Source: Escherichia coli
GTDB taxonomy: Bacteria > Pseudomonadota > Gammaproteobacteria > Enterobacterales > Enterobacteriaceae
Assembly (NCBI RefSeq): GCF_030013595.1
Contig: NZ_CP122768.1
Reading direction: 5' to 3' (one strand)
Length of the DNA stretch: 64,000 nucleotides
Positions within the stretch are counted from its first letter, which is position 1; the number at the start of each line of letters is the position of its first letter. The position numbers and the translations under genes are program-made. Shown in pieces: positions 32,781 to 59,127 of this stretch. The notes beneath the pieces are model-generated. The model worked only from the letters and a program-made list of their open reading frames with translations. It was not told where the DNA came from and searched no databases.

Positions 32781-33761
32781 ATGGCACAACGAGTACAGCT
32801 CACTGCAACGGTGTCCGAAAACCAACTCGGTCAACGCTTAGATCAGGCTTTGGCCGAAATGTTCCCGGATTATTCACGTTCGCGGATAAAAGAATGGATC
32901 CTCGACCAGCGCGTGCTGGTTAACGGCAAAGTTTGTGATAAGCCGAAAGAAAAAGTATTGGGTGGCGAGCAGGTTGCCATCAACGCTGAGATTGAAGAAG
33001 AAGCGCGTTTTGAACCGCAGGATATCCCGCTGGATATTGTCTATGAAGATGACGATATCATCGTCATTAATAAACCACGCGACCTGGTGGTACATCCTGG
33101 CGCGGGTAACCCGGATGGCACGGTACTGAATGCGTTGCTTCATTATTATCCGCCCATTGCCGATGTACCGCGTGCGGGCATCGTCCATCGTCTGGATAAA
33201 GACACCACCGGCCTGATGGTTGTGGCAAAAACCGTTCCGGCTCAGACGCGTTTAGTCGAATCTTTGCAACGGCGTGAAATTACTCGTGAGTATGAAGCGG
33301 TGGCAATTGGTCATATGACCGCTGGCGGTACAGTAGATGAACCAATCAGCCGCCACCCGACCAAACGTACTCACATGGCGGTGCATCCCATGGGCAAACC
33401 GGCGGTCACTCACTATCGCATCATGGAACACTTCCGTGTGCACACGCGTCTGCGGTTGCGTCTGGAAACTGGACGTACGCACCAGATCCGCGTGCATATG
33501 GCCCATATCACTCATCCGCTGGTGGGCGATCCGGTTTATGGTGGCCGTCCGCGTCCGCCAAAAGGTGCTTCGGAAGCGTTTATCTCCACGCTGCGTAAGT
33601 TTGACCGCCAGGCGCTTCATGCAACCATGCTGCGTCTTTATCACCCAATCTCCGGCATCGAAATGGAATGGCATGCGCCTATTCCACAAGATATGGTGGA
33701 GCTGATTGAGGTGATGCGCGCCGATTTCGAAGAGCATAAAGATGAAGTGGACTGGTTATGA
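32781..33761 (+). CDS. rluD: 23S rRNA pseudouridine(1911/1915/1917) synthase RluD
   Basis: 326 aa, S4 domain plus RluA-family catalytic motif (HRLDKDTTGLMVVAK). Confidence 0.95.
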   Translation: MAQRVQLTATVSENQLGQRLDQALAEMFPDYSRSRIKEWILDQRVLVNGKVCDKPKEKVLGGEQVAINAEIEEEARFEPQDIPLDIVYEDDDIIVINKPRDLVVHPGAGNPDGTVLNALLHYYPPIADVPRAGIVHRLDKDTTGLMVVAKTVPAQTRLVESLQRREITREYEAVAIGHMTAGGTVDEPISRHPTKRTHMAVHPMGKPAVTHYRIMEHFRVHTRLRLRLETGRTHQIRVHMAHITHPLVGDPVYGGRPRPPKGASEAFISTLRKFDRQALHATMLRLYHPISGIEMEWHAPIPQDMVELIEVMRADFEEHKDEVDWL

Positions 33762-53419: not shown

Positions 53420-54301
53420 ATGGATCTGCGCCGTTTTATTACGCTTAAAACTGTGGTGGAAGAGGGTTCCTTTTTGCGAGCTTCGCAAAAATTGTGCTGC
53501 ACACAATCGACGGTGACTTTTCATATTCAGCAGCTTGAGCAGGAGTTCTCAGTCCAGTTATTTGAGAAAATTGGTCGACGAATGTGCCTTACCCGCGAAG
53601 GAAAAAAGCTGCTGCCGCACATCTATGAACTCACCAGAGTGATGGATACCCTTCGTGAGGCTGCCAAAAAAGAGTCGGATCCGGACGGGGAACTACGCGT
53701 TGTTTCAGGCGAAACGTTGCTTTCTTACCGAATGCCGCAGGTGTTGCAGCGTTTTCGGCAACGCGCACCAAAAGTGCGTTTATCGTTGCAGTCTCTGAAC
53801 TGTTACGTGATCCGTGATGCGCTACTGAATGATGAGGCTGATGTCGGCGTCTTTTACCGCGTAGGGAATGATGATGCTCTGAACCGACGAGAGTTGGGTG
53901 AACAATCACTGGTGCTGGTGGCTTCACCGCAAATTAAAGATGTCGATTTTACTGAGCCGGGAAGACATAACGCCTGTAGTTTTATTATCAATGAACCGCA
54001 ATGTGTCTTCCGCCAGCTATTTGAGAGCACGCTGCGCCAGCGACGGATCACGGTGGAAAACACCATTGAGCTTATAAGTATCGAAAGCATCAAGCGTTGT
54101 GTCGCGGCAAATATCGGGGTCAGTTACCTGCCGCGCTTTACAGTGGCAAATGAACTTGCGAGTGGCGAATTAATCGAATTGCCTTTTGGCGAACAGTCGC
54201 AGACCATTACGGCAATGTGCGCTCACCATGCCGGAAAAGCGGTTAGCCCGGCGATGCACATTTTTATTCAGTGTGTTGAAGAGTGTTTTTTGCCGGGATA
54301 A
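53420..54301 (+). CDS. yfiE: LysR-family transcriptional regulator YfiE
   Basis: 293 aa from MDLRRFITLKTVVEEGSFLRASQKL (LysR HTH); divergent from eamB. Confidence 0.85.
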   Translation: MDLRRFITLKTVVEEGSFLRASQKLCCTQSTVTFHIQQLEQEFSVQLFEKIGRRMCLTREGKKLLPHIYELTRVMDTLREAAKKESDPDGELRVVSGETLLSYRMPQVLQRFRQRAPKVRLSLQSLNCYVIRDALLNDEADVGVFYRVGNDDALNRRELGEQSLVLVASPQIKDVDFTEPGRHNACSFIINEPQCVFRQLFESTLRQRRITVENTIELISIESIKRCVAANIGVSYLPRFTVANELASGELIELPFGEQSQTITAMCAHHAGKAVSPAMHIFIQCVEECFLPG

Positions 54302-55799: not shown

Positions 55800-56537
55800 A
55801 TGTCACAGTCTACATCCGTGCTTCGTCGTAATGGATTTACTTTTAAACAGTTTTTTGTTGCTCACGATCGTTGTGCGATGAAAGTGGGAACGGATGGCAT
55901 TTTGCTGGGCGCATGGGCACCGGTGGCTGGGGTAAAACGTTGCCTTGATATCGGCGCGGGTAGCGGGTTGCTGGCATTAATGCTGGCGCAGCGAACCGAT
56001 GACAGCGTAATGATTGATGCAGTTGAACTGGAAAGTGAAGCTGCCGCGCAGGCGCAGGAAAATATCAACCAGTCCCCGTGGGCAGAGCGGATTAACGTCC
56101 ATACGGCGGATATTCAGCAGTGGATCACACAGCAGACAGTACGCTTCGATTTAATCATCAGTAACCCACCTTACTATCAGCAGGGAGTAGAGTGCTCGAC
56201 ACCTCAACGGGAACAGGCTCGCTATACCACTACGCTTGATCACCCATCGTTGCTGACCTGTGCGGCGGAGTGCATTACCGAAGAGGGATTTTTCTGCGTG
56301 GTGCTGCCAGAGCAGATTGGTAATGGTTTTACTGAACTGGCATTAAGTATGGGCTGGCATTTACGTTTGCGGACGGATGTGGCGGAAAACGAAGCGCGAC
56401 TGCCGCATCGGGTGCTGCTGGCATTCTCCCCGCAGGCGGGAGAATGCTTTAGCGATCGCTTAGTCATTCGTGGGCCAGACCAGAACTATTCCGAAGCGTA
56501 TACGGCGCTGACCCAGGCTTTTTATCTGTTTATGTAA
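55800..56537 (+). CDS. yfiC: tRNA1(Val) (adenine37-N6)-methyltransferase YfiC (TrmN6)
   Basis: 245 aa from [19 protein letters not shown]; NPPY motif (IISNPPYY); 3' end overlaps nadB 3' end by 16 nt. Confidence 0.85.
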
Positions 56538-58144
56538 TGATTGCCGGGGGAAAGGATCGATGGACCGGAATGCGTGAGCAGTTCCGGATAATCCAGCGTG
56601 AAATGCAACCCCCGACTCTCCTTGCGCATCATCGCACAGCAAACAATCAACTCGGCAACCTGTACCAGATTACGCAGCTCCAGCAAATTATTTGAGACGC
56701 GGAAATGGGCGTAATATTCGTCTATTTCTTGTTGGAGCATGGTTATCCGCCGCAGGGCGCGTTCCAGGCGCTTCGTTGTGCGCACAATGCCAACGTAATC
56801 CCACATAAACAGACGTAGCTCGTGCCAGTTATGTTGAATCACCACCCGTTCGTCAGGGTTCTCAACGCGGCTTTCATCCCACGGCGGTAACGTACTGACG
56901 CCGTGGGCATAAGGCATACATCTGGTGATATCTTCTGCCGCCGACCAGCCATAGACCAGACACTCCAGCAAGGAGTTAGAGGCCATGCGGTTAGCGCCGT
57001 GTAAGCCGGTATAACTCACTTCGCCAATGGCATACAAACCCTCGACGTCCGTACGCCCATGATCATCAACCATTACACCACCGCAGGTATAGTGTGCAGC
57101 AGGCACAATCGGTACCGGTTCTTGTGTGAGATCAATCCCCAGCCCGAGCAACTTTTCATAGATCATCGGGAAATGCTGGCGAATAAAATCGGCAGGCTTA
57201 TGGCTGATGTCGAGATACATACAATCCGCACCGAGGCGTTTCATTTCATGATCAATAGCGCGGGCGACAATATCGCGCGGGGCCAGTTCGCCGCGCTCAT
57301 CGAAATCGGGCATAAAACGCGTGCCATCCGGGCGCTTGAGATAAGCGCCTTCGCCGCGCAGTGCTTCTGTTAACAGGAAATTGCGTGCCTGTGGGTGATA
57401 CAGTGCGGTAGGGTGGAACTGATTAAATTCGAGATTGGCAACCCGGCAGCCTGCGCGCCACGCCATAGCAATGCCATCGCCAGAAGAAATATCTGGATTG
57501 GTGGTGTACTGATAAACCTTCGACGCACCGCCGGTTGCCAGTACCACTGCTTTTGCGTGGCAGGTTTCCACCGTTTCTTTATTTCGGTTCCATACCCACG
57601 CGCCAACAACCCGTCGCGTGCCCGGCAGGCCAATTTTGTCAGAGACAATCAGATCAACCGCGTTGCTGCGCTCCAGCACACGAATATTCGGATGGTTCTG
57701 CGCCTTGCTCACCAGCGTGGATTGTACTTCTCTACCGGTGGCGTCGGCGGCATGAAGAATACGACGGTGACTATGTCCACCTTCACGGGTCAGATGGTAG
57801 CTTTCTTCGCCATTCGGTTGAACGTGGGTATCAAACAAAACCCCCTGGTCAATTAACCATTGCACACAGGAACGAGCATTGCTGGCGACAAATTCAACTG
57901 CATGGCGATCGCAAATACCAGCCCCGGCAATCAATGTGTCTTCCACATGCGAGTCAATGCTGTCAGTTTCATCAAACACGGCGGCAATACCGCCCTGGGC
58001 ATAAAATGTTGAACCTTCCGTTACCGGGCCTTTACTTAGAACGATGACCTGATGCTGATCAGCCAGGCGCAGCGCCAGTGAAAGTCCGGCTGCGCCGCTA
58101 CCGATAATCAACACGTCACATGAATGATCAGGGAGAGTATTCAT
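56522..58144 (-). CDS. nadB: L-aspartate oxidase NadB
   Basis: 540 aa, FAD-binding GSGAAGLS motif, matches recalled NadB. Confidence 0.95.
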
Positions 58145-58399
58145 TTTCTTTGTTTAATTTACTAAACACGGTTTGGTCAGCATAGCATCATGTTGTGCGA
58201 TTAAACACCTGCTATTTTAATATTTGTTACAGTGGCTAAACACGCTGACGCAGGGCGGCGAGAAAAAGAGAAGTTACTGGCTGGTGGAGGATTAGGTGGT
58301 GAAATAAAAAGGCCGTTGGGTTACTCTTCAGGCAGTTAAATGGGCATTTCTACACAGATAATGCGATGTTCAGATTCTGTAGACTTATAATGATAGATA

Positions 58400-58555
58400 A
58401 TGATCCGTCTACAGCATGACAAACAAAAACAGATGCGTTACGGAACTTTACAAAAACGAGACACTCTAACCCTTTGCTTGCTCAAATTGCAGCTAATGGA
58501 GTGGCGTTTCGATAGCGCGTGGAAATTTGGTTTGGGGAGACTTTACCTCGGATGA
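58400..58555 (+). CDS. rseD: Small leader ORF upstream of rpoE (51 codons, MIRLQHDKQKQMRYGTLQKRDTLTLCLLKLQLMEWRFDSAWKFGLGRLYLG), stop overlapping rpoE start as ATGA; consistent with rseD
   Basis: Translated by hand in the +1 frame relative to rpoE; ATG at 58400, TGA at 58553-58555; too short for the supplied ORF track. Confidence 0.5.
   Translation: MIRLQHDKQKQMRYGTLQKRDTLTLCLLKLQLMEWRFDSAWKFGLGRLYLG
58442..58469 (+). promoter_or_regulatory. SigmaE-dependent rpoE promoter (-35 GGAACTT, 16 bp, -10 TCTAA)
   Basis: Match to sigmaE consensus; corresponds to the autoregulated rpoE promoter. Confidence 0.6.
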
Positions 58556-59127
58556 GCGAGCAGTTAACGGACCAGGTCCTGGTTGAACGGGTCCAGAAGG
58601 GAGATCAGAAAGCCTTTAACTTACTGGTAGTGCGCTATCAGCATAAAGTGGCGAGTCTGGTTTCCCGCTATGTGCCGTCGGGTGATGTTCCCGATGTGGT
58701 ACAAGAAGCTTTTATTAAAGCCTATCGTGCGCTGGATTCGTTCCGGGGAGATAGCGCTTTTTATACATGGCTGTATCGGATTGCTGTAAATACAGCGAAA
58801 AATTACCTGGTTGCTCAGGGGCGTCGTCCACCTTCCAGTGATGTGGATGCCATTGAAGCTGAAAACTTCGAAAGTGGCGGCGCGTTGAAAGAAATTTCGA
58901 ACCCTGAGAACTTAATGTTGTCAGAAGAACTGAGACAGATAGTTTTCCGAACTATTGAGTCCCTCCCGGAAGATTTACGCATGGCAATAACCTTGCGGGA
59001 GCTGGATGGCCTGAGCTATGAAGAGATAGCCGCTATCATGGATTGTCCGGTAGGTACGGTGCGTTCACGTATCTTCCGAGCGAGGGAAGCTATTGATAAC
59101 AAAGTTCAACCGCTTATCAGGCGTTGA
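58552..59127 (+). CDS. rpoE: RNA polymerase sigma factor RpoE (sigma-24, ECF)
   Basis: 191 aa from MSEQLTDQVLVERVQKGDQKAFNLLVVRYQHKVASLV; ORF-track start 58519 is an in-frame extension. Confidence 0.95.
   Translation: MSEQLTDQVLVERVQKGDQKAFNLLVVRYQHKVASLVSRYVPSGDVPDVVQEAFIKAYRALDSFRGDSAFYTWLYRIAVNTAKNYLVAQGRRPPSSDVDAIEAENFESGGALKEISNPENLMLSEELRQIVFRTIESLPEDLRMAITLRELDGLSYEEIAAIMDCPVGTVRSRIFRAREAIDNKVQPLIRR

What the first reader, a model, noticed from the sequence alone, without database searches (positions are those of the whole stretch)
58400..58555. 51-codon leader ORF translationally coupled to rpoE (absent from the ORF track)
Reading the frame whose TGA overlaps the rpoE ATG (ATGA at 58552-58555) back to the first in-frame ATG after a TAG gives a 51-codon ORF starting at 58400. 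The sigmaE-type promoter GGAACTT-N16-TCTAA (58442-58469) lies inside it, so only transcripts from further upstream would encode it. This fits what I recall of the rseD leader peptide described for rpoE.
Basis: partly seen in the sequence, partly recalled or inferred. Interest (0 to 1): 0.3.

Follow-up and report, generated by a model that had tools for sequence, protein, structure and literature searches.

The report
Known rpoE leader ORF, rseD

Summary
A 51-codon ATG ORF runs from 58400 to 58555 (+), and its TGA overlaps the rpoE ATG (ATGA, 58552-58555). A perfect sigma-E-type promoter (GGAACTT-N16-TCTAA, 58442-58469) lies inside it. The ORF is identical at 156 of 156 bases to E. coli K-12 rseD (b4725). 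It scores 104 bits against NCBIfam NF033697 "leader_RseD" (cutoff 35). RefSeq annotates it as "rpoE leader peptide RseD" in every listed E. coli record. The literature describes the operon as rseD-rpoE-rseA-rseB-rseC, and rseD translation has been shown by a lacZ fusion and by PIRT-Seq.

My comparative work adds three points:
- The ATGA overlap follows from RpoE starting Met-Ser. It is present in 75 of 83 gammaproteobacterial loci whether or not an ORF is there.
- An RseD-like ORF of about 51-54 codons exists only in Escherichia, Shigella, Salmonella and Citrobacter.
- The frame shows no codon periodicity, and its dN/dS is about 0.5-2.4, against 0.01-0.04 for rpoE.

So what is conserved is regulatory DNA and RNA, not a peptide. 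That fits a leader ORF that matters because it is translated, not for its product. Verdict: already known, low interest.

The parts
58400..58555 (+). rseD, a 51-codon leader ORF (rpoE leader peptide RseD), including its TGA stop
   Evidence: ORF listed. Identical at 156/156 nt to K-12 b4725. Coincides with the RefSeq rseD CDS. NCBIfam NF033697 at 104 bits against a cutoff of 35.
58394..58396 (+). In-frame TAG that closes the rseD frame upstream, one codon before the ATG
   Evidence: Read directly from the sequence. Frame stop list.
58552..58555 (+). ATGA overlap of the rpoE start codon (58552-58554) and the rseD stop codon (58553-58555)
   Evidence: The overlap follows from RpoE starting Met-Ser and is conserved in 75 of 83 gammaproteobacterial loci.
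58442..58469 (+). Sigma-E-dependent autoregulated rpoE promoter (called P6 in the Klein nomenclature, formerly P2): -35 GGAACTT at 58442-58448, 16-nt spacer, -10 TCTAA at 58465-58469. It lies inside rseD codons 15-24.
   Evidence: Sequence. Only perfect match in the window. GGAACTT and CTCTAA are conserved across 17 Enterobacteriaceae. Literature: PMC6358824 and PMC8595263. The transcription start, inferred at about 58475-58477, was not measured here.
58534..58540 (+). rpoE Shine-Dalgarno sequence GGGGAGA, which lies inside rseD codons 45-47
   Evidence: Sequence. GGAGA is invariant in 17 Enterobacteriaceae.
58521..58552 (+). GGA motifs in the rpoE leader at 58521-58523, 58536-58538 (in the SD) and 58550-58552 (overlapping the ATG). 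These are candidate CsrA binding sites.
   Evidence: Positions read and conserved. [quoted passage not shown] CsrA binds rpoE RNA from -133 to +19 with a Kd of 5 nM and represses an rpoE'-'lacZ fusion (PMC5694010). Assigning these particular GGA motifs to the footprinted sites is inference.
58552..59127 (+). rpoE (sigma-E, 191 aa), the gene served by the leader
   Evidence: The mechanical ORF starts at GTG 58519, but the annotated start is ATG 58552.
58386..58391 (+). Perfect TATAAT hexamer 8 nt upstream of the rseD ATG, conserved across Enterobacteriaceae. It is probably the -10 of one of the distal rpoE promoters.
   Evidence: Alignment: ACTTATAAT is present in 14 of the 17 sequences. It has no good -35, so the sigma-70 scan did not call it. 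Assignment to a named promoter was not verified.
58476..58483 (+). Conserved 5' end of the inferred sigma-E transcript (GCUUGCUC), predicted to pair with rpoE codons 2-4 (GAGCGAGC, 58554-58561)
   Evidence: Minimum-free-energy fold. The pairing is kept in 27-29 of 29 Enterobacterales sequences but has no compensatory changes. The fold z-score is -0.8, which is not significant. This is a lead only.

Best explanation
This is rseD, the known leader ORF of the E. coli rseD-rpoE-rseA-rseB-rseC operon.

Shown by sequence:
- The ORF is identical to K-12 rseD.
- It ends in an ATGA overlap with rpoE.
- It contains the sigma-E promoter, the rpoE Shine-Dalgarno sequence and GGA motifs.

From the literature:
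- rpoE is transcribed from six promoters, five of them distal to the sigma-E-dependent one.
- rseD is translated.
- CsrA binds the rpoE leader at the SD and the start codon and represses translation.

Inferred mechanism:
- On long transcripts from the distal promoters, ribosomes translate rseD through the region that holds the rpoE ribosome-binding site. They terminate at UGA one base past the rpoE AUG, then reinitiate there or unmask the site. This raises sigma-E synthesis; I recall about two-fold from Yakhnin 2017.
- Transcripts from the internal sigma-E promoter start at about 58476, lack the rseD start, and depend on rpoE's own SD alone.

The comparative data indicate that the act of translation matters, not the peptide. 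The frame evolves with dN/dS near 1 and without codon periodicity. Its conserved blocks coincide with the promoter elements and the rpoE 5' UTR.
For: Identity:
- 156/156 nt match to b4725.
- The RefSeq rseD CDS is at the same coordinates.
- NF033697 equivalog at 104 bits against a cutoff of 35.
- The region is present in 5,425 of 5,426 complete E. coli genomes at 99% identity or more, and every listed record annotates rseD there.
- Proteins named RseD occur in E. coli, Shigella and Citrobacter.

Literature:
- Operon name and promoters upstream of or within rseD: PMC8595263.
- EcoCyc lists rseD among leader peptides: bioRxiv 10.1101/2020.07.18.207399.
- Translation detected by PIRT-Seq and earlier by a chromosomal lacZ translational fusion: PMC12350097.
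- Six promoters, with P6 autoregulated by sigma-E: PMC6358824.
- CsrA binding and repression: PMC7652899 and PMC5694010.

Translation rather than peptide:
- Minimum substitutions at codon positions 1/2/3 are 61/66/47 in rseD against 25/12/247 in rpoE across the same 17 genomes.
- Nei-Gojobori dN/dS is 0.5-2.4 for rseD, 0.01-0.04 for rpoE and 0.03-0.13 for rseA among Escherichia, Salmonella and Citrobacter. rseD dS is below rpoE dS in nine of the ten pairs.
- The start codon differs between Escherichia and Salmonella/Citrobacter because of a 1-nt indel.
- Only 7 of 35 Enterobacterales loci carry an ATG-ORF of at least 45 codons in this frame.
Against: - No Shine-Dalgarno-like sequence precedes the rseD ATG, so how it is initiated is unclear.
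- The primary paper showing coupling (Yakhnin 2017) and the promoter-mapping paper (Klein 2016) are not held. The magnitude of coupling and the exact transcription start sites rest on my recollection and on citing papers.
- The ATGA overlap is forced by RpoE's Met-Ser and so does not argue for coupling by itself.
- The predicted RBS-masking structure is no more stable than shuffled sequence (z = -0.8) and has no covariation support.
- The dN/dS estimates come from only 47 codons and five lineages, so they have wide uncertainty.
Confidence: 0.92

Rival explanations
1. RseD is a functional small protein that acts in trans in the envelope stress response, for example as a fourth Rse regulator. 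Under this reading the ORF is maintained for its product.
For: - It is translated in vivo (PMC12350097).
- An ORF of 51-54 codons is open in Escherichia, Salmonella and Citrobacter despite a start-site indel.
- The segment is essentially invariant across 5,425 E. coli genomes.
- The rse gene name implies a suspected regulatory role.
Against: - dN/dS is about 0.5-2.4 and there is no third-position excess, whereas rpoE and rseA in the same genomes show strong purifying selection.
- The frame is truncated or lacks an ATG in most other Enterobacterales, including Enterobacter and Klebsiella.
- The conserved residues coincide with the sigma-E promoter and the rpoE UTR/SD.
- There is no Pfam or PDB relative.
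- Invariance within E. coli is equally explained by the dense regulatory elements.
Confidence: 0.06
2. The ORF is an incidental open frame across regulatory DNA. Any translation is noise with no consequence for rpoE.
For: - A frame open for at least 52 codons arises in 2.9% of shuffles.
- The ATGA is forced by RpoE's Met-Ser.
- There is no SD before the ATG.
- There is no peptide-level constraint.
- The ORF is not conserved outside a narrow clade.
Against: - Published experiments reported translation of rseD by lacZ fusion, cited in PMC12350097.
- As I recall from Yakhnin 2017, rpoE translation falls by more than 50% when coupling is lost.
- PIRT-Seq detected rseD independently.
- An ATG-ORF of at least 51 codons occurs in only 0.7% of shuffles.
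Confidence: 0.02

Closest known systems
rseD (b4725) of Escherichia coli K-12, 'rpoE leader peptide RseD' (NCBIfam NF033697; ORF51 of Yakhnin et al. 2017)
   Same: Identical sequence (156/156 nt, 51/51 aa). Same position between nadB and rpoE. Same ATGA overlap and same internal sigma-E promoter.
   Different: Nothing within the ORF. The window differs from K-12 only at four bases further upstream in the intergenic region (58169, 58200, 58201, 58234).
idlP (ORF27)-iraD of E. coli, a CsrA-controlled upstream ORF translationally coupled to the downstream gene (Park et al. 2017, PMC5574718; reviewed in PMC7652899)
   Same: A short upstream ORF that slightly overlaps the start of a stress-regulator gene. 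Expression of the downstream gene depends on translation of the upstream ORF. Both are linked to the Csr system.
   Different: At iraD, CsrA represses the upstream ORF, and repression of iraD is entirely indirect through coupling. At rpoE, CsrA is reported to bind the rpoE SD and start codon directly, and coupling to rseD is an additional, partial contribution. There is no sequence relationship.
Classical attenuation leader peptides (trpL, hisL, thrL, pheL and others)
   Same: A short ORF in the leader of an operon, listed together with rseD as 'leader peptides' in EcoCyc.
   Different: There is no terminator or antiterminator hairpin downstream: 0 terminator-like sites were found in 58050-58650. 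There is no run of regulatory codons. The ORF overlaps the downstream start codon instead of ending well upstream of it. The logic is coupling, not transcription attenuation.

Membership tests
RseD, rpoE leader peptide (NCBIfam NF033697, equivalog) | Sequence scores above the curated cutoff of the family model | tested here: met
   104.2 bits against a cutoff of 35, E = 3.2e-30, residues 7-51 aligned to profile positions 1-45 of 45.
RseD, rpoE leader peptide (NCBIfam NF033697, equivalog) | Identity with the type gene, E. coli K-12 rseD b4725 | tested here: met
   Exact 156-nt match to the reverse complement of NC_000913.3 2710009-2710164.
RseD, rpoE leader peptide (NCBIfam NF033697, equivalog) | Located immediately upstream of rpoE, same strand, with its stop codon overlapping the rpoE start codon | tested here: met
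   TGA at 58553-58555 and rpoE ATG at 58552-58554. Same arrangement as the RefSeq annotation.
RseD, rpoE leader peptide (NCBIfam NF033697, equivalog) | The ORF is translated in vivo | not testable with these tools
   Literature only: PIRT-Seq detection and a chromosomal lacZ translational fusion (PMC12350097 citing Yakhnin 2017).
RseD, rpoE leader peptide (NCBIfam NF033697, equivalog) | Translational coupling: rpoE translation depends partly on rseD translation | not testable with these tools
   Reported by Yakhnin et al. 2017. The paper is not held, so this rests on my recollection of its abstract. The ATGA geometry is compatible with coupling but is forced by Met-Ser.
Sigma-E (RpoE)-dependent promoter | -35 GGAACTT and -10 TCNAA separated by about 16 nt (consensus of Rhodius et al. 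2006, from my own knowledge) | tested here: met
   GGAACTT-N16-TCTAA at 58442-58469. Only perfect match in the window. Both elements are conserved in 17 Enterobacteriaceae. Described in the literature as the autoregulated promoter P6.
CsrA-repressed leader | GGA motifs overlapping the SD and start codon of the regulated gene, and CsrA binding | tested here: inconclusive
   GGA motifs are present and conserved at 58521-58523, 58536-58538 (SD) and 58550-58552 (start). Binding itself comes only from the literature (Kd 5 nM, PMC5694010; three sites, PMC7652899).
Attenuation-type leader peptide | Intrinsic terminator and alternative hairpins between the leader ORF and the structural gene | tested here: not met
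   0 terminator-like sites in 58050-58650. The ORF runs into the structural gene with no spacer. No Rfam leader family matches.
Conserved small-protein gene (peptide under purifying selection) | Excess of third-position or synonymous change, with dN/dS well below 1 | tested here: not met
   Codon-position substitutions are 61/66/47, against 25/12/247 in rpoE. dN/dS is 0.5-2.4, against 0.01-0.04 for rpoE.

The most novel reading that the evidence does not exclude
rseD is not a conserved peptide gene. It is a lineage-restricted open frame (Escherichia, Shigella, Salmonella, Citrobacter) laid over promoter and 5'-UTR DNA, and its only function is that ribosomes pass through it.

Under this reading, the invariant 5' end of the sigma-E transcript (UUGCUC, 58478-58483) pairs with rpoE codons 2-4, and together with an SD/AUG hairpin (58530-58553) it forms an RBS-masking element. 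Translation of rseD on long transcripts would open that element. Distal-promoter and sigma-E-promoter mRNAs would then differ in translational efficiency.

A further possibility is that the conserved TATAAT at 58386-58391 yields a leaderless or nearly leaderless rseD mRNA in E. coli.
Probability: 0.3. Interest if true: 0.3.

Novelty: already known. Interest (0 to 1): 0.07.

Why it matters
It matters mainly as a quality check. A tool-less reading of raw sequence correctly recovered a small annotated gene that length-thresholded ORF lists miss. Biologically, rseD is part of the published control circuit of sigma-E, an essential envelope-stress regulator.

The small addition here is comparative evidence that the peptide sequence is not under purifying selection and that the ORF is confined to a narrow enterobacterial clade. 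This favours a purely cis-acting role through translational coupling over a trans-acting RseD protein. That question appears to have been left open when the gene was named.

Tried and rejected
- **Rfam scan** of 58000-58800 at E <= 1: no RNA family.
- **Sigma-70 promoter and intrinsic terminator scan** of 58050-58650: nothing found, so there is no attenuator.
- **Pfam**: only a sub-threshold DUF7878 hit at 12.7 bits against a cutoff of 25, rejected.
- **PDB sequence search**: nothing.
- **Primary papers**: Yakhnin 2017 (by DOI and by PMC5686586) and Klein 2016 (PMC5087721) are not held. Exact transcription start sites, CsrA footprints and the coupling magnitude could not be read directly. Searches for a held paper stating the rseD-rpoE coupling result found none.
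- **Leader RNA folding**: folds of the sigma-E transcript leader and of the rseD-containing leader were no more stable than shuffles (z = -0.8 and -1.4). The consensus fold of 29 Enterobacterales leaders showed essentially no covariation, with one pair carrying a double change. I do not claim a structure.
- **The ATGA overlap as evidence for the ORF**: considered and rejected, because it is dictated by RpoE's Met-Ser.
- **One-mismatch sigma-E-like motifs** at 32838-32865 and 54151-54178: at chance level (0.86 expected) and not pursued.

Full report
**1. Observation**

- An ATG at 58400 is preceded in frame by TAG at 58394-58396.
- It opens a 51-codon frame (MIRLQHDKQKQMRYGTLQKRDTLTLCLLKLQLMEWRFDSAWKFGLGRLYLG) that ends with TGA at 58553-58555.
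- The rpoE ATG is at 58552-58554, so the two genes share ATGA.
- GGAACTT (58442-58448), a 16-nt spacer and TCTAA (58465-58469) lie within codons 15-24 of the frame.

The surrounding genes are nadB (divergent, 56522-58144, minus strand), rpoE, rseA, rseB and rseC. At the default 60-aa threshold the ORF list shows only rpoE here.

**2. Is it more than chance?**

In 20,000 dinucleotide-preserving shuffles of the intergenic region, an ATG-ORF of at least 51 codons ending on the fixed TGA occurred in 0.7%. A frame open for at least 52 codons occurred in 2.9%. This is unusual but not overwhelming.

The promoter motif is the only perfect GGAACTT-N16-TCNAA in the 64 kb.

The ATGA overlap carries no weight by itself. 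RpoE begins Met-Ser (ATG AGC), and ATGA is present at the rpoE start in 35 of 35 Enterobacterales and 40 of 48 other gammaproteobacterial loci, most of which have no long ORF upstream.

**3. Identity**

- The nadB-rpoE region is present in 5,425 of 5,426 complete E. coli genomes. Every listed record annotates "rseD: rpoE leader peptide RseD" under it.
- In a 100%-identical strain the RefSeq rseD CDS maps exactly to window 58400-58555, and rpoE maps to 58552.
- K-12 MG1655 annotates rseD as b4725 at 2710009-2710164, complement. The window ORF is identical to it at all 156 bases. The window differs from K-12 only at 58169, 58200, 58201 and 58234 over 58145-59127.
- The peptide scores 104.2 bits against NCBIfam NF033697 "leader_RseD", an equivalog model with a cutoff of 35.
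- Database homologues named RseD come from E. coli, Shigella and Citrobacter.
- There is no Pfam family above threshold, no PDB relative and no Rfam match.

**4. Literature**

- EcoCyc lists rseD among leader peptides (bioRxiv 10.1101/2020.07.18.207399).
- PIRT-Seq detected rseD as translated and notes earlier validation by a chromosomal lacZ translational reporter, citing Yakhnin et al. 2017 (PMC12350097).
- rpoE has six promoters. The sigma-E-autoregulated one is P6 (formerly P2). P2 and P3 respond to LPS defects, and P4 is RpoS-dependent (PMC6358824 and PMC5736990).
- CsrA binds three sites in the rpoE mRNA, two of them overlapping the SD and the initiation codon, and represses translation (PMC7652899).
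- Independently, CsrA binds rpoE RNA from -133 to +19 with a Kd of 5 nM and represses an rpoE'-'lacZ fusion (PMC5694010).
- The primary papers (Yakhnin 2017, Klein 2016) are not held. My statement that loss of coupling lowers rpoE translation by more than half is from memory of the Yakhnin abstract and was not verified here.

**5. Comparative anatomy (new work here)**

I fetched 80 rpoE loci from one genome per species, plus Salmonella, K. pneumoniae and C. freundii loci.

An alignment of 17 Enterobacteriaceae upstream regions shows that conservation is concentrated in five discrete blocks:
- ACTTATAAT (TATAAT at 58386-58391)
- CAAAAACA..GCGTAACGGAACTT, ending in the sigma-E -35
- CTCTAA, the -10
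- TGCTTGCTCA (58475-58484, the inferred 5' end of the sigma-E transcript)
- the last ~55 nt before rpoE, which hold the GGA motifs and the SD GGGGAGA at 58534-58540

Between the blocks there are frame-shifting indels.

An RseD-like ORF is open in these lineages:
- E. albertii: 51 aa
- Salmonella: 54 aa, MEDKTCLQHDKQKQMRNGTLRNIDTLTCCLLIVRLMEWRFESAWKFGLGRHYLG
- Citrobacter: 51-54 aa, with 40 aa called from the internal Met in C. amalonaticus

Salmonella and Citrobacter start at an ATG that overlaps the TATAAT. Escherichia has a 1-nt insertion that closes that frame and creates its own ATG at 58400.

Elsewhere the frame is shorter or has no start:
- Enterobacter: 21-35 codons, or no ATG
- K. pneumoniae: 31 codons
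- Overall, 15 of 35 Enterobacterales loci have no ATG in the frame, and only 7 of 35 have an ATG-ORF of at least 45 codons. Three of those seven (L016, L019, L020) resemble RseD only in their C-terminal tail.

**6. Is the peptide under selection?**

It is not detectably so.
- Across the 17 genomes, minimum substitutions at codon positions 1/2/3 of the rseD frame are 61/66/47. In rpoE in the same genomes they are 25/12/247.
- Among E. coli, E. albertii, Salmonella, C. freundii and Citrobacter FP75, Nei-Gojobori dN/dS for the shared 47 codons is 0.5-2.4, mostly around 0.8-1. For rpoE it is 0.01-0.04 and for rseA 0.03-0.13.
- rseD dS (0-0.24) is lower than rpoE dS (0.06-0.40) in nine of the ten pairs. 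That points to nucleotide-level constraint at "synonymous" sites.
- Within E. coli, the 181-nt segment 58380-58560 is at least 99% identical in all 5,425 genomes. The wider 556-nt query, which adds mostly upstream intergenic sequence, falls to 95-99% in 1,063 genomes.

The pattern is that of dense regulatory DNA and RNA that happens to be open, and is translated, in one clade. The sample is small (47 codons, five lineages), so this is suggestive and not decisive.

**7. Mechanism**

The parts that are shown are the geometry, the identity and the conserved elements. From the literature come translation of rseD, the multiple promoters and CsrA binding and repression. The rest is inferred:
- Transcripts from the distal promoters carry the rseD AUG. 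Ribosomes translating rseD traverse the rpoE SD and terminate at UGA one base beyond the rpoE AUG. They then reinitiate there or keep the site accessible.
- Sigma-E-promoter transcripts start at about 58476, cannot encode full-length RseD, and use rpoE's own SD, which CsrA can occlude.
- There is no SD-like sequence before the rseD AUG.

A predicted fold of the sigma-E transcript pairs its 5' end (58476-58483) with rpoE codons 2-4 (58554-58561) and puts the SD and AUG in a hairpin (58530-58537 with 58546-58553). The 5'-end pairing is retained in 27-29 of 29 Enterobacterales sequences. Both sides are invariant, however, so there is no covariation, and the fold is no more stable than shuffles (z = -0.8). 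I record it only as a lead.

**8. Comparison with known systems, and verdict**

- This is a member of the RseD family, and in fact the type sequence itself.
- It works like the idlP-iraD coupled upstream ORF from the same regulatory network. The difference is that CsrA is reported to act directly on the rpoE ribosome-binding site, not on the upstream ORF.
- It is not an attenuation-type leader. No terminator is present, and there is no spacer between the ORF and rpoE.

Interest is low. The only mildly new element is the comparative evidence that favours a cis-acting role through translation alone over a functional RseD peptide.

Noticed in passing
window 58386-58391 (+): A perfect TATAAT hexamer 8 nt upstream of the rseD ATG. 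The ACTTATAAT block around it is present in 14 of 17 aligned Enterobacteriaceae, although the flanking sequence varies. A start about 7 nt downstream would make the E. coli rseD mRNA leaderless or nearly so. In Salmonella and Citrobacter the annotated rseD-like ATG overlaps this hexamer and would be excluded from such a transcript. There is no good -35, and the sigma-70 scan missed it. I could not check which of the published distal promoters this is.
   Followed up: partly
window 58476-58483 and 58554-58561 (+): The invariant block TGCTTGCTCA at the inferred 5' end of the sigma-E transcript is complementary to rpoE codons 2-4 (GAGCGAGC). The pairing is kept in 27-29 of 29 Enterobacterales leaders, even where the intervening UTR is unalignable. 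It has no compensatory changes, and the fold is not significant.
   Followed up: partly
window 58390-58402 compared with L084 1335-1350 and L087: A 1-nt indel (GATAATGATCC in Escherichia, GATAA-GACC in Salmonella and Citrobacter) moves the start codon of the leader ORF. Escherichia starts at 58400, while Salmonella and Citrobacter start 10 nt further upstream and have 54 codons. The frame stays open in both lineages.
   Followed up: yes
window 58496-58555 (+): An in-frame ATG (Met33 of RseD) lies about 20 nt downstream of the inferred sigma-E transcription start. It would give a 19-codon mini-ORF (MEWRFDSAWKFGLGRLYLG) that still ends on the rpoE ATGA. Enterobacter species have an ATG two codons further upstream (21 aa), and several other genera have 19-35-codon versions. 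Whether sigma-E transcripts are also coupled through such a mini-ORF is untested.
   Followed up: partly
window 58169, 58200, 58201, 58234: These are the only differences from K-12 MG1655 over 58145-59127, and all lie in the nadB-proximal part of the intergenic region. The window is therefore from a non-K-12 E. coli. It is 100% identical to strain 7/2 and strain VTB96959v over 58145-58700.
   Followed up: partly
window 58519-59127 (+): The mechanical ORF for rpoE starts at GTG 58519 (202 aa). The annotated start is ATG 58552 (191 aa).
   Followed up: yes
window 54151-54178 (+) and 32838-32865 (-): Two one-mismatch matches to the sigma-E promoter pattern (TGAACTT-N16-TCGAA and GGAACAT-N16-TCTAA). 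Three hits in total, against 0.86 expected by chance, is not significant: 8 of 100 shuffles had at least 3.
   Followed up: no
L084 1161-1340 (+) (Salmonella enterica): A further 59-aa gene is called immediately upstream of, and abutting, the 54-aa rseD-like ORF in one Salmonella assembly. It has no Pfam hit and is possibly a spurious call in the open frame.
   Followed up: no
protein P0016: A partial RseD identical to the E. coli N-terminus is labelled Pseudomonas aeruginosa. It sits on a 320-nt contig and diverges after residue 26 (SVSYTHL). This looks like contamination or an assembly chimera, not a genuine Pseudomonas gene.
   Followed up: no
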